DNA of 64,000 nucleotides from Candidatus Peregrinibacteria bacterium. Its GTDB lineage: Bacteria > Patescibacteriota > Gracilibacteria > UBA1369 > GCA-2718715. How positions within the stretch are numbered: the stretch's first letter is position 1; each line of letters begins with the position of its first letter. The notes beneath the pieces were generated by a model, which was not told the origin of the DNA, did not search any database, and saw only the letters and a list, made by a program, of their open reading frames with translations. The stretch is taken from NCBI GenBank assembly GCA_014240275.1, contig JAAZXH010000006.1:12749-76748 (forward strand), in the 5' to 3' direction. Made by a program: the position numbers and the translations under genes. Below, in pieces: positions 7,821 to 11,589 of the stretch.

Positions 7821-7847
7821 TTAGCACTCTTAATTTTACAGTGCTAA
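7821..7847. promoter_or_regulatory. CIRCE (HrcA operator) inverted repeat upstream of groES
   Basis: TTAGCACTC-N9-CAGTGCTAA has one mismatch to the consensus TTAGCACTC-N9-GAGTGCTAA. It lies 15 nt upstream of the groES start. Confidence 0.8.
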
Positions 7848-7883: not shown

Positions 7884-9392
7884 TTATGAAGCTTCTGCCT
7901 CCAAGCGTTTTTCACGCAAAACATGCACTTTAACCTGGCCCGAATACTGCATATCACTTTCAATTTTTTTAGAAATATCAACCGCTAAAGTCATAACTCT
8001 CAAATCATCAACCTTATCAACGTTAGCAATTACTCTAACCTGATTCCCATTATTGATAGCAAATGCTTCAGAAACCTCACCAAATGACTTAGCAATATTT
8101 TCCAACTCTGTTAGACGGCTTACAAAAGTTTCAAAATTATTTTTACCTATTCCAGGTCGGCTACAAACTAAATTATAAGCAATGTTTACAACTATAGCCG
8201 GTAGATTATCTGATGGATCTACAACTTCTGCAACTGCAAGAGCTAAACGATCTGCCAATCCAAACTTACGAATAATATCTGCTCCAACTTCGCTATATTT
8301 GCCAGAGACCTCATGATTCACCGCCTTACCAATTGAGTTTAATAAAGCCACCCTTTTAACAAAAGATGTATCAACATTTAACTCAGCTGCCAACACCGCT
8401 GCCAAATTGGCAACTTCAATAGATTGCTTTAACACATTTTGACCATTATTTGTACGAAATTTTAAGCGACCAAGCAAAGTTAAAATTTCAGGGGGCAATC
8501 CTGCTACACCAGCCTTGTAAGCTGCTTTTTCGCCTAAGTTATAAATTAATTCGTCAACTTCTTCCTGAACTTTTAAAACAACCTCTTCGATTCGAGCAGG
8601 ATGAATTCTTCCATCAGAAACTAAACGCTCCAATGCAATTTTAGCGATATACCTCCGTTTTAAATCAAAACCAGAAATCAAAACCACGCCTGGAGTATCA
8701 TCAACCACTACATCTACTCCTGTTAATCTTTCAAAAGACTGAATATTTCGACCTTCTTTACCAATTATTCGCCCTTTCATATCATCAGATGGTAAATCTA
8801 CTATGGTAGAGGTGTTTTCTGAAGCAATTTCCGAAGCATTTTTTTGCATAGCTAAAGCTAAAATCATTTTAGATTTCTCAACTGAGTCTTTCTTGACCTC
8901 AGATATAAGTGATTTAGCATAATCAGCCAATAATTCAGCATGATCAGATTGCACTTTTTCAAACATAAAATCCTTTGCTTGTTCCTGAGTCATACCTGAT
9001 ATTTTTTGTAACTGTTGATCTTGTAAAGTCAACATTTCTTTGTATTTTCCCTGAGTTTCTTTTGTTATTTGCAAATTCTTATCAATTTCTAAACGTTCTT
9101 TGTCTAGAGCATCTAATTGATTTTCTAAATCTTGCTCTCGTTTTAAAAGTTTCGATTGTTTTGCCTCCATTTCTTTTCTGACACCTCGCTCCTTTTCTTT
9201 AGATTCTTGCTGCAACTTGCGAAACTTACCTTCCGCATCGTGCAACATATCGTCAGCTTTTTGCTTAGCTTGTTCAAGAGTCACCTTAGACTCTTGTTGC
9301 AAACCTGCTAACGTTTTATTCAACAAGGCTTTCGATACAACAAATCCAGCTATAATACCTAATAATAAATATAAAAATTCCATAAAAAACAA
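7884..9392 (-). CDS. rny: RNase Y homologue (N-terminal TM, coiled coil, KH, HD-like domain with degenerate catalytic residues)
   Basis: TM helix, Lys/Glu-rich coiled coil, KH motif GRIIGKEGRNIQSFERLTG, DGRIHPARIEE, then a colinear HD-type domain. The conserved His/Asp positions of that domain are replaced (see finding). Confidence 0.85.
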   Translation of the reverse strand: MFFMEFLYLLLGIIAGFVVSKALLNKTLAGLQQESKVTLEQAKQKADDMLHDAEGKFRKLQQESKEKERGVRKEMEAKQSKLLKREQDLENQLDALDKERLEIDKNLQITKETQGKYKEMLTLQDQQLQKISGMTQEQAKDFMFEKVQSDHAELLADYAKSLISEVKKDSVEKSKMILALAMQKNASEIASENTSTIVDLPSDDMKGRIIGKEGRNIQSFERLTGVDVVVDDTPGVVLISGFDLKRRYIAKIALERLVSDGRIHPARIEEVVLKVQEEVDELIYNLGEKAAYKAGVAGLPPEILTLLGRLKFRTNNGQNVLKQSIEVANLAAVLAAELNVDTSFVKRVALLNSIGKAVNHEVSGKYSEVGADIIRKFGLADRLALAVAEVVDPSDNLPAIVVNIAYNLVCSRPGIGKNNFETFVSRLTELENIAKSFGEVSEAFAINNGNQVRVIANVDKVDDLRVMTLAVDISKKIESDMQYSGQVKVHVLREKRLEAEAS

Positions 9393-9504: not shown

Positions 9505-11589
9505 ATGAACGTACTAAGCCTTCTACTAAATATCGAACTTTTAAATTTTGAAATCAGCAATCAAGAACTAGAACTTGAACTCAAAAATAGCTTTGACAAA
9601 AAACAAGTCTATGAACTTTATTTAGACAACCATAAAAACGATGAAGTCAAATTAGCAATTGGAGAAAATACAATCACAGTCGATATCGAGCAAACCATGA
9701 AACTCAAAAATATAATTTTAAAAAACAAAGATAATCAATACCTATTTCCTCTAGTCAAAGAACCACCAAACTGCGATTTATCTCAGAATGCATTTATCAA
9801 CGAGATTAATATCGAAGAAGACTTTATCGAAATATACCTTCCACAAAAAATTGAATATGATTTTCTATACCTAGAAATTGACCAAAAAAAAATCCCAGTA
9901 CCAAACACAGCTGGACTACATATAATCAAATACCAATTACCTAGGAGTAGTGAACAAATCAGTTTGAAACTCTTAAATAAAACTTTAGACGGAATTTGTT
10001 ATCAAAACCAAAGCATCACAGAAAGCGAACTCAACGAACAAAATCAATTCACTTTAACTCACGAAACAAACTGCATTACAACAGAAGCAATTCCTAAAAA
10101 AATGAGTTTAATAAGAACAAACTATCTAGCAAATATCAACACCAATAATTATAAACTTAGTTTAAAATCTACTCCAAACTCTTTACAAAGTCATTTTAAC
10201 AAAAAACCATACGCCGAAATTTCAGTAATCAACCAAGATCAAAACCAAATTAACTTAAGTGCAGAAGAATCAAATGATCCAAACTCAGACAAACTCAAAT
10301 ATCACTGGGAACTCAATAACAAACTGATCTCAAACAAAACCGAAATACTAGTCAATAAAACAAACTCAAATCAAATAATTAACTTAACAGTCGAAGACCC
10401 ACTAAAAATGCAAGATACAACACAATTCACAATTCCAAAAACTGAGACTACATCCAGCTCAAAACAAAACCGTACAACAAAAAACATTAATGAAACCACA
10501 CAACCAATAATGGAAATGCAAAATATACAAAAAACAAATACCATAAACCAAACACCAAATATCAAAATCATCAATCTTTTAGCAAATCCAAGTGGCAAAG
10601 ATCAGAAACAAGAGTGGATAGAATTAAAAAACTTAGGTACAGAGAGTATTAGCACAACCATACAACTCAAAGATACATCTAAACAAATAGAAACAATTCA
10701 AATTAAAAATTTAAAACCTCAAGCAAGCATTAAACATTATCTCAACAAAATAACCTTAAATAATCAAACAGAAGAACTGAAGCTAGTATATAACGAACAA
10801 ACCATACAAGAGATCCAATACCATAACGCACAAGAAGGTCAAATTATAAACCCAAGCAAAACCAACAGTCAACAACAAGAAGAAAAACCAAACAAAAATA
10901 AAAACACACAAGAAGAAAATACAACACAAAGCGAACAGAAAGAACACACAGAAATCCAGAATTCCAAAATAATTGATTTAAAAATTTCAGAAATTTACCC
11001 CAATCCAAACGCTAATGAAAAAGAATGGATAGAAATATACAACAACTCAAATCAAGATGTCAATAACTTTGATTTTCAGATTCTAATCAACAACAGTAAG
11101 AAAAAAAATCCAACATTCACCATACCCAGCAAAGCTTATAAACTAATAGAAGTTTCAAGAATCAACAATCAAGAAGCTCAAATCAGCCTGAAACAAGGTG
11201 ACAGAATCATTGATCAAATTAATTACTCTAAAAGTCTAAAAGGAGAAAGCTTTAGCAAAATAAACCAAATCTTTTATTGGACCAAAGTTATAACACCAGG
11301 AGAAAAAAACCCAATTTTTCAAGAACTTAACGGAACAATCAATTCAATTGAAGATCAAACATTTGAACTTAACAAGCAAAAAATTATCGGAACAATTGAT
11401 AACAAATTCCTAAATCAGAAATTGACACTTCAAATCCTCAAACATAATTCAGACTTATATCTCCAAAAAATTATCAGTATTGAACAAAAAAGCACTACAA
11501 AAATAAGTTCAAAAACAAAAACTATTATTGCAAGCTCTCTAGGTATCTTTACCTTTTGCATAGGAAGTTTAATCAAACACCTTAGCTAA
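9505..11589 (+). CDS. Lamin-tail-domain (LTD) surface protein, Asn/Gln/Lys/Thr-rich, C-terminal TM anchor
   Basis: Two LTD-like segments (INLLANPSGKDQKQEWIELKN; ISEIYPNPNANEKEWIEIYNN), a PKD-like SNDPNSDKLKYHWELN, and a C-terminal hydrophobic helix. Confidence 0.7.
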   Translation: MNVLSLLLNIELLNFEISNQELELELKNSFDKKQVYELYLDNHKNDEVKLAIGENTITVDIEQTMKLKNIILKNKDNQYLFPLVKEPPNCDLSQNAFINEINIEEDFIEIYLPQKIEYDFLYLEIDQKKIPVPNTAGLHIIKYQLPRSSEQISLKLLNKTLDGICYQNQSITESELNEQNQFTLTHETNCITTEAIPKKMSLIRTNYLANINTNNYKLSLKSTPNSLQSHFNKKPYAEISVINQDQNQINLSAEESNDPNSDKLKYHWELNNKLISNKTEILVNKTNSNQIINLTVEDPLKMQDTTQFTIPKTETTSSSKQNRTTKNINETTQPIMEMQNIQKTNTINQTPNIKIINLLANPSGKDQKQEWIELKNLGTESISTTIQLKDTSKQIETIQIKNLKPQASIKHYLNKITLNNQTEELKLVYNEQTIQEIQYHNAQEGQIINPSKTNSQQQEEKPNKNKNTQEENTTQSEQKEHTEIQNSKIIDLKISEIYPNPNANEKEWIEIYNNSNQDVNNFDFQILINNSKKKNPTFTIPSKAYKLIEVSRINNQEAQISLKQGDRIIDQINYSKSLKGESFSKINQIFYWTKVITPGEKNPIFQELNGTINSIEDQTFELNKQKIIGTIDNKFLNQKLTLQILKHNSDLYLQKIISIEQKSTTKISSKTKTIIASSLGIFTFCIGSLIKHLS

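What the first reader, a model, noticed from the sequence alone, without database searches (positions are those of the whole stretch)
8148..8435. RNase Y homologue with every conserved HD-domain His/Asp replaced
The protein is colinear with characterised RNase Y (TM, coiled coil, KH, HD, C-terminal domain), and the KH region is well conserved. The catalytic HD motifs are not. Where B. subtilis Rny has NVLKHS, LLHDVGK, SHHGD and AAADAL, this protein has NVLKQS, LLNSIGK, AVAEVVD and VNIAYNL. The metal-binding His...His-Asp...His/His...Asp constellation is therefore absent. The His-Asp dyad is required for activity in the B. subtilis enzyme. This looks like a catalytically dead scaffold, or an enzyme using a different mechanism.
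Basis: partly seen in the sequence, partly recalled or inferred. Interest (0 to 1): 0.6.

Follow-up and report, generated by a model that had tools for sequence, protein, structure and literature searches.

The report
RNase Y paralogue without catalytic residues
This candidate-phyla bacterium carries an RNase Y copy that keeps its membrane anchor and RNA-binding domain but has lost all seven metal-binding residues, while its relatives carry a second copy with the opposite pattern, which suggests the two copies divide the work.

Summary
The gene at 7884-9392 (-) scores as full-length RNase Y (TIGR03319, 485.6 bits; cut-off 454). All seven HD metal-ligand positions are replaced: Q323, N352, S353, Y366, V390, V391, Y406. 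This is not an assembly error or a pseudogene. Two other assemblies give the same HD region, the same-genus relative has the same pattern, and non-synonymous change is far below synonymous change.

Nearly all 40 relatives in the same order carry two rny paralogues. Copy A, the window's type, keeps an invariant KH GXXG loop, but its HD site decays. Asp424 is never Asp in 120 A-type proteins, and every ligand is gone in one subclade of the window's family. Copy B keeps all seven ligands in 93 of 93 proteins. B loses the KH GXXG loop in the same subclade.

The best reading is that A is a non-catalytic, membrane-bound RNA-binding subunit and B is the nuclease. They may work as a heterodimer, loosely like RNase J1/J2.

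B is absent from this 79%-complete assembly. Its whole conserved neighbourhood, including holB, is also absent. A fitting B gene (P0122) occurs in a sister sample.

An earlier scan note (e1-5120799) saw the Asp-to-Asn A-type in another genome.

The parts
7884..9392 (-). rnyA, the RNase Y paralogue A. It has 502 codons from TTG 9392; the probable start is ATG 9383 (499 aa).
   Evidence: TIGR03319 scores 485.6 bits against a 454.35 cut-off. Two other assemblies call a 499-aa protein (P0002) from this ATG; it differs from the window's at one residue, Y284D.
9327..9383 (-). N-terminal hydrophobic helix (MEFLYLLLGIIAGFVVSKA), the membrane anchor.
   Evidence: Sequence. It is colinear with the B. 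subtilis TM segment, residues 1-25 (PMC3997798). The AF2 model has a helix from residue 2.
8829..9377 (-). RNase_Y_N long helix, the coiled-coil region (residues 6-188).
   Evidence: Pfam PF12072 scores 71.1 bits against a cut-off of 32. The AF2 model has helices at 2-132, 136-150 and 152-184.
8631..8801 (-). KH domain (residues 198-254) with an intact GXXG loop, GKEG at 211-214 (window 8751-8762).
   Evidence: Pfam KH_1 scores 34.3 bits against a cut-off of 21.5. MKGRIIGxEGRNI is conserved in all A copies apart from rare conservative M/L and I/V changes, and it matches B. subtilis. pN is 0.05 against pS 0.73 in the comparison with G001.
8148..8444 (-). HD-fold module (residues 317-415) without any of the seven metal ligands: Q323, N352, S353, Y366, V390, V391, Y406.
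   Evidence: Pfam HD is below its cut-off. The fold is still predicted at pLDDT 82-94. Foldseek hits HD proteins 2pq7, PgpH and PhnZ. pN is 0.19 against pS 0.72.
7887..8147 (-). C-terminal beta/alpha region (residues 416-502). This is the putative dimerisation region of RNase Y. RPGAR reads RPGIG here.
   Evidence: Alignment and model. The role in dimerisation is proposed for the B. subtilis enzyme in PMC9775385.

Best explanation
The gene encodes paralogue A of a duplicated RNase Y. A keeps the membrane anchor, the coiled-coil dimerisation helix, a fully canonical KH RNA-binding domain, an HD-shaped module and the C-terminal region. It has lost every His/Asp that binds the catalytic metal, so it cannot be a metal-dependent HD phosphodiesterase (inferred from sequence; no assay was done).

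A is kept by purifying selection as a non-catalytic, membrane-bound RNA-binding subunit or scaffold. The endonuclease chemistry is supplied by paralogue B. B keeps all seven ligands, but in this same subclade it has lost the KH GXXG RNA-binding loop.

[quoted passage not shown] In it, A contributes RNA binding and B contributes cleavage (inferred).

B is expected to lie in the unassembled 21% of this genome.
For: Shown by tools:
- Zero of seven ligands are kept, and Pfam HD is below its cut-off.
- The replacement residues differ between genera: QNSYVVY, HMHFQSN, QHAFMQY, FKFMQKT. This indicates relaxed constraint, not a new site.
- The gene is under purifying selection. Against G001, KH has pN 0.05 and pS 0.73, and HD has pN 0.19 and pS 0.72. 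Within the population, 5 differences are synonymous and 1 is non-synonymous.
- Most of the 40 relatives in the order have two paralogues.
- B keeps H, HD, H, HH, D and RPGAR in every B sequence complete over those columns from the relatives and in 93 of 93 database proteins.
- Domain conservation is reciprocal. A has KH 0.81-0.86 and HD 0.50-0.66. B has KH 0.37-0.41 and HD 0.57-0.70.
- In the tree, the clade with dead A (99*) and the clade with GXXG-less B (100*) contain the same genomes and have congruent topology.
- Every other genome with a dead A (G001, G003, G005-G009, G015, G033) has an HD-intact B.
- Both AF2 models show the same architecture: A with pLDDT 85 and B with pLDDT 88. B keeps the KH fold.

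Evidence that B exists in this organism:
- The conserved B neighbourhood (peptidase, rnyB, VanW, TPR, holB, PPIase) is entirely missing from G000, including the essential holB. Only DnaX is found.
- P0122 is a B-type protein 63% identical to G001_B, and sister to it in the tree. This fits the calibration that 75% identity in A corresponds to 64-72% in B.
- P0122 comes from BUSC20-1 SAMN14422883. The near-identical A comes from BUSC20-1 SAMN14422882.
Against: - No B gene is present in the G000 assembly.
- Some relatives have only one copy. G023 (100% complete) and G031 have only A. G018 and G019 have only B. The two copies are therefore not universally interdependent.
- The pairing of A-HD loss with B-KH loss is one evolutionary event. 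In G015 and G033, A lost HD but B keeps GXXG. In f37, B lost GXXG but A keeps H, HD and HH.
- No heteromer prediction and no assay were possible.
Its numbering fits PMC3997798, and the ligand columns are independently defined by the B-type and single-copy sequences.
Confidence: 0.68

Rival explanations
1. A works alone as a scaffold. It is a membrane-anchored RNA-binding or organiser protein, for example one that recruits RNase J or RNase III. It works without any RNase Y-type nuclease partner, and this organism really has no B.
For: B is absent from the assembly. RNase J (525 bits) and RNase III (230 bits) are present, so RNA decay does not need RNase Y. Some relatives live with one copy only. 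In B. subtilis, RNase Y also acts as a degradosome hub (PMC5289998 is listed; this role is stated from my own knowledge).
Against: The same-genus genome and all other genomes with a dead A have B. The whole B neighbourhood, including holB, is missing, which points to an assembly gap and not to gene loss. A fitting B occurs in a sister sample. The single-copy relatives that have only A keep H, HD and at least one H of the HH pair.
Confidence: 0.2
2. A is still a nuclease that uses a different, non-HD mechanism.
For: The HD-fold module is retained with high model confidence and is under purifying selection. H360, in the DHE motif, is kept in all A copies.
Against: The residues at the seven former ligand positions are not conserved among the dead A lineages, so no new catalytic constellation is visible. 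The H360 equivalent is Gln in most B copies and in some single-copy enzymes, so it is not a catalytic requirement. Mean HD conservation drops from 0.66 to 0.50 in dead A copies.
Confidence: 0.07
3. The finding is an artefact or a decaying pseudogene: a sequencing or assembly error, or a gene on its way out.
For: The assembly is a 79%-complete MAG.
Against: The frame is open over 502 codons. Two independent assemblies agree. Synonymous differences far exceed non-synonymous ones. The dead form persists across at least four genera with a conserved KH domain.
Confidence: 0.02

Closest known systems
RNase Y (Rny/YmdA, CvfA) of Bacillus subtilis and other Firmicutes; NCBIfam TIGR03319
   Same: The protein is colinear over its full length: TM helix, coiled coil, KH with GXXG, HD-fold module and C-terminal region. 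It is 38% identical to B. subtilis Rny by tblastn. It scores above the equivalog cut-off.
   Different: All seven His/Asp metal ligands of the HD module are replaced, including the H368/D369 dyad of the His/Asp motif required for activity (PMC3997798). RPGAR reads RPGIG. The gene lies upstream of groES-groEL, not next to ymdB.
RNase J1/J2 paralogue pair of Firmicutes
   Same: Both are duplicated RNA-decay nucleases in which one paralogue has weak or dispensable catalysis and acts within heterodimers or heterotetramers with the active one (PMC4419217).
   Different: The fold is unrelated (beta-CASP, not KH-HD). J2 keeps its active-site residues and some activity. Here the active site is erased, and the partner has reciprocally lost its RNA-binding loop. 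An A/B heteromer is only inferred.
HD-superfamily pseudoenzymes, i.e. HD-fold domains that lack the H...HD...D motif
   Same: The HD fold is retained without metal ligands. Foldseek matches 2pq7, PgpH and PhnZ, and Pfam HD is below threshold.
   Different: Here the dead HD module sits inside an otherwise canonical RNase Y. I found no paper describing this for RNase Y.

Membership tests
RNase Y (TIGR03319 equivalog) | Whole-protein HMM score above the curated cut-off. | tested here: met
   485.6 bits against a cut-off of 454.35.
RNase Y (TIGR03319 equivalog) | N-terminal membrane helix plus a long coiled-coil region (PF12072). | tested here: met
   PF12072 scores 71.1 bits against a cut-off of 32. 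The N-terminus is hydrophobic. The AF2 model has a helix at 2-184.
RNase Y (TIGR03319 equivalog) | KH domain with a GXXG loop. | tested here: met
   KH_1 scores 34.3 bits against a cut-off of 21.5. GKEG lies at residues 211-214.
RNase Y (TIGR03319 equivalog) | HD domain with the His/Asp metal ligands (B. subtilis H339, H368, D369, H382, H406, H407, D424). | tested here: not met
   Zero of seven are kept. PF01966 scores 17.5 bits against a cut-off of 22.
RNase Y (TIGR03319 equivalog) | Mg2+/Mn2+-dependent endoribonuclease activity. | not testable with these tools
   This needs a biochemical assay.
HD superfamily phosphohydrolases (PF01966) | H...HD...D metal-binding motif. | tested here: not met
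   The motif reads Q...NS...Y.
HD superfamily phosphohydrolases (PF01966) | All-helical HD fold. | tested here: met
   In the AF2 model the blocks spanning the HD module score pLDDT 82-94 up to residue 410 and 60 for residues 411-420. Foldseek gives probability 1.00 hits to 2pq7, 4s1c (PgpH) and 4mlm (PhnZ), with weak E-values because the query is multi-domain.
Non-catalytic paralogue working with an active paralogue (J1/J2-like arrangement) | An active paralogue is encoded in the same genome. | tested here: inconclusive
   None is present in the 79%-complete G000. B is present in G001 and in all other genomes with a dead A. The B neighbourhood is missing as a block. The candidate P0122 comes from a sister sample.
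Non-catalytic paralogue working with an active paralogue (J1/J2-like arrangement) | Physical heteromer of the two paralogues. | not testable with these tools
   Only monomer prediction is offered. Both paralogues keep the coiled-coil and C-terminal dimerisation regions.

The most novel reading that the evidence does not exclude
In one subclade of this Peregrinibacteria-like family, the two RNase Y paralogues have undergone reciprocal domain decay. A has lost the HD active site and B has lost the KH GXXG loop. Neither would then be a complete RNase Y, and the functional enzyme would be an obligate A/B heterodimer. That heterodimer would have one RNA-binding subunit and one catalytic subunit, held together by the coiled coil. 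This would be subfunctionalisation at the level of domains within a membrane-bound RNA-decay nuclease.
Probability: 0.35. Interest if true: 0.72.

Novelty: new variant of a known kind. Interest (0 to 1): 0.55.

Why it matters
RNase Y initiates mRNA decay in many bacteria, and it has been studied as a homo-oligomer encoded by one gene. This work shows that an entire order of candidate-phyla bacteria carries two diverged copies with complementary patterns of conservation. In one subclade, the copy that annotation pipelines name 'ribonuclease Y' has no catalytic residues.

That matters in three ways:
- **Annotation:** the TIGR03319 equivalog labels the dead copy and misses the copy that is probably active.
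- **Metabolic reconstruction:** it affects how RNA decay is reconstructed in reduced genomes.
- **Evolution:** it is a natural experiment on how a KH-HD nuclease can split RNA binding and catalysis between subunits.

It also gives a clean, testable case of pseudoenzyme evolution.

Tried and rejected
- **PDB sequence search.** It found only a generic KH protein (IGF2BP1) and no solved RNase Y catalytic domain.
- **Second rny in G000.** I searched with TIGR03319, with A, with 18 B proteins and with a B from another family. Only the A locus came up. The weak TIGR03319 hits on C24 and C18 are an unrelated HD protein and a coiled-coil protein.
- **Assembly error or pseudogene.** Rejected on the basis.
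- **Shifted but present ligands.** Rejected. MAFFT alignments with 120, 49 and 95 sequences place the same columns, and there is no His or Asp within one or two residues of the dyad.
- **New active site.** Rejected because the replacement residues vary between genera.
- **Strict co-evolution of A-HD loss with B-KH loss.** Not supported as a rule. It is one joint event, with counter-examples in both directions.
- **Timing of the duplication.** Unresolved. B nests among the single-copy sequences of the class, and the A-like copies of f37, f39 and f46 are unresolved at the base.
- **Literature.** No paper was found that links RNase Y to Peregrinibacteria or Patescibacteria paralogues.

Full report
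**What is at the coordinates**

The finding lies inside one ORF, window 7884-9392 on the minus strand. It has 502 codons from TTG. Other assemblies start the same protein at ATG 9383, giving 499 aa.

NCBIfam TIGR03319 (ribonuclease Y, equivalog) scores 485.6 bits, above its 454.35 cut-off. Pfam finds RNase_Y_N (71.1 bits) and KH_1 (34.3 bits) above their cut-offs. HD scores only 17.5 bits, below its 22-bit cut-off. The coordinates 8148-8435 correspond to residues 320-415, the HD module.

**Checking the observation**

The four quoted motifs are present at residues 319, 350, 386 and 402. I aligned the protein with its 120 nearest database homologues and with B. subtilis Rny. Its length and domain numbering agree with PMC3997798: KH at 211-270 and HD at 336-429.

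The metal-ligand columns map as follows:

| B. subtilis | This protein |
|---|---|
| H339 | Q323 |
| H368 | N352 |
| D369 | S353 |
| H382 | Y366 |
| H406 | V390 |
| H407 | V391 |
| D424 | Y406 |

R434 of the RPGAR motif is G416. No shifted His or Asp is available near these positions.

This is not an error. Two independent metagenome contigs (L082 and L083) are 99.6-99.7% identical over 3.4-3.8 kb. Within the gene they differ only at codons 9, 133, 207, 218 and 236 (all synonymous) and at codon 284 (Y to D). None of these lies in the HD module. The same-genus genome G001, whose A copy is 75% identical, has the same Q/NS/Y pattern.

**The gene is maintained**

In the comparison with G001, KH has pN 0.05 and pS 0.73, and HD has pN 0.19 and pS 0.72. 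dS is saturated, so the ratios are only rough.

The AF2 model has mean pLDDT 85. It shows a long N-terminal helix, a KH fold, an HD-type helical module at pLDDT 82-94 and a C-terminal beta/alpha region. Foldseek matches HD proteins (2pq7, PgpH, PhnZ) and KH proteins (Dim2p, Rrp4).

**The context that explains the finding**

The window lies in an 851-kb, 28-contig assembly that is 79% complete. The names of its homologues point to Peregrinibacteria within the Patescibacteria group.

A search of 40 relatives in the same order found two RNase Y-like genes in most of them:

- **Copy A** is 41-75% identical to the window's protein.
- **Copy B** is 23-32% identical.

I extracted both copies from all the genomes. 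The contrast between them is sharp.

Every B sequence that covers those columns keeps H, HD, H, HH, D and RPGAR. In an alignment of 93 B-type database proteins, all seven ligands are invariant columns.

Every A keeps MKGRIIGxEGRNI apart from rare conservative M/L and I/V changes, so the KH GXXG loop matches B. subtilis in all of them. The HD site of A, however, erodes:

- None of the 120 nearest A-type proteins has Asp at position 424. It is N in 89, Y in 15 and S in 9.
- 67 of the 120 keep the other six ligands.
- 23 keep two or fewer.
- 7 keep none, and the window's protein is one of these.

Single-copy RNase Y sequences from other orders of the same class have both an intact KH and the full HD site with Asp and RPGAR. 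Two copies occur only in the window's order and in three other families: f37, f39 and f46.

**Reciprocal decay in the window's subclade**

Mean pairwise identity by domain is reciprocal between the two copies:

| Copy | KH | HD |
|---|---|---|
| A | 0.81-0.86 | 0.50 (dead copies) to 0.66 |
| B | 0.37-0.41 | 0.57-0.70 |

In family f1, the A copies of G000, G001, P0003, G003 and G005-G009 form one clade (99*). All of them have a dead HD site. Their sisters are G002, which is intact, and G004, which lacks only the HH pair.

The B copies of the same genomes form one clade (100*). All of them lack GXXG; for example, G001 reads FKNA-TQNESQYL. Their sister, G002_B, keeps GRGA. The two clades have congruent topology.

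The AF2 model of the B-type protein P0122 (pLDDT 88) keeps the KH fold and has a very confident HD module.

The replacement residues in dead A copies differ between genera: QNSYVVY, HMHFQSN, QHAFMQY and FKFMQKT. That is what relaxed constraint produces. A new catalytic site would not look like this.

**Does this organism have B?**

No B is present in the assembly. Three observations suggest that it lies in the missing 21%.

1. In relatives, B sits in a conserved block: peptidase, rnyB, VanW, TPR, holB and PPIase. None of these has an orthologue in G000. The only holB-like hit is DnaX. Since holB is normally essential, an assembly gap is more likely than a deletion.
2. P0122 is a B-type protein that is 63% identical to G001_B and is sister to it in the tree. 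Pairs of genomes whose A copies are about 75% identical have B copies that are 64-72% identical, so P0122 sits where G000's B should be.
3. P0122 comes from ENA ERZ23488034 (BUSC20-1, SAMN14422883). The near-identical A comes from ERZ23487860 (BUSC20-1, SAMN14422882). These are sister samples.

**Other RNases in G000**

RNase J is present at C4:19543-21192 (525 bits), and RNase III at C18:4034-4681. No RNase E/G and no PNPase were found in this incomplete genome.

**Mechanism**

The following steps are shown:

- A lacks all the ligands.
- A is conserved elsewhere, most strongly in the KH domain.
- B is the mirror image of A.
- The two copies co-occur and co-diverge.

The following steps are inferred:

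- A is catalytically inactive as an HD phosphodiesterase.
- A acts as a membrane-bound RNA-binding subunit.

B. subtilis RNase Y dimerises through a parallel N-terminal coiled coil, which makes up about 72% of the interface, and through the C-terminal region. Its KH domains line a putative RNA channel (PMC9775385). Both A and B retain these parts. An A/B heteromer in which A binds RNA and B cuts it is therefore structurally plausible.

The closest precedent is RNase J1/J2, where a weakly active paralogue works in heteromers with the active one (PMC4419217).

**Caveats**

- The joint loss of A's HD site and B's KH loop is one evolutionary event, and there are counter-examples in both directions. 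G015 and G033 lost the HD site in A but keep GXXG in B. The f37 genomes lost GXXG in B but keep H, HD and HH in A.
- G023 (100% complete) and G031 have only A. G018 and G019 have only B.
- The date of the duplication is not resolved by my quick tree, which has a single outgroup.

**Comparison with what is known, and novelty**

By whole-protein score and architecture the protein belongs to the RNase Y family. It fails the family's catalytic hallmark. It is best described as a non-catalytic RNase Y paralogue.

I found no paper on RNase Y paralogues or dead RNase Y in Patescibacteria or Peregrinibacteria.

There is also an annotation pitfall. TIGR03319 names the dead A 'ribonuclease Y' (486-502 bits) and leaves the HD-intact B below its cut-off (283-292 bits).

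**Verdict**

The 'dead scaffold' reading is supported and is extended to a two-paralogue model with divided labour. The 'different mechanism' reading is not supported. This is a new variant of a known kind, of moderate interest.

Noticed in passing
window 7821-7847 (-): A CIRCE-type inverted repeat, TTAGCACTG-N9-GAGTGCTAA, lies in the 77-nt gap between the rnyA stop codon and the groES ATG. groES-groEL therefore appears to have its own HrcA-type operator. The order rnyA-groES-groEL is kept in 22 of 30 A loci of relatives, and B is never next to groES.
   Followed up: partly
window 9383-9392 (-): The ORF list starts the gene at TTG 9392. Other assemblies call the protein from ATG 9383 (499 aa), which is the more likely start.
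   Followed up: partly
window 8541-8543 (-), codon 284: The window has Tyr284 (TAT), whereas two other assemblies of the same population have Asp (GAT). This is the only non-synonymous difference among six.
   Followed up: yes
G023, G031, G018, G019 (relatives): Some genomes of the order have only one paralogue. G023 (100% complete) and G031 have only A, with H, HD and at least one H of the HH pair kept. G018 and G019 have only B, plus fragments. A and B are therefore not universally co-dependent.
   Followed up: partly
P0122, L034 (B copies) compared with the window gene: The NCBIfam TIGR03319 equivalog scores the ligand-less A copies above its cut-off (486-502 bits) and the HD-intact B copies far below it (283-292 bits). 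Sources name B 'Rnase Y domain-containing', 'DUF3552' or 'HD domain-containing' protein. This is likely to cause systematic mis-annotation in this lineage.
   Followed up: yes
A-type proteins P0003-P0121: No A-type protein has Asp at the position of B. subtilis D424. It is N in 89, Y in 15 and S in 9. The final Arg of RPGAR is also replaced. These two changes appear to be the founding hallmark of paralogue A, even in copies that keep the other six ligands.
   Followed up: partly
window 9505-11589 (+): A 694-aa protein rich in Asn, Gln, Lys and Ile, with low complexity and a C-terminal hydrophobic helix, lies in a stretch with 29% GC and a strong AT skew (0.4). Its function is unknown.
   Followed up: no
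G000 as a whole: No holB, no PPIase of the L080 type, no PNPase and no RNase E/G were found in the 79%-complete assembly. RNase J and RNase III are present.
   Followed up: partly
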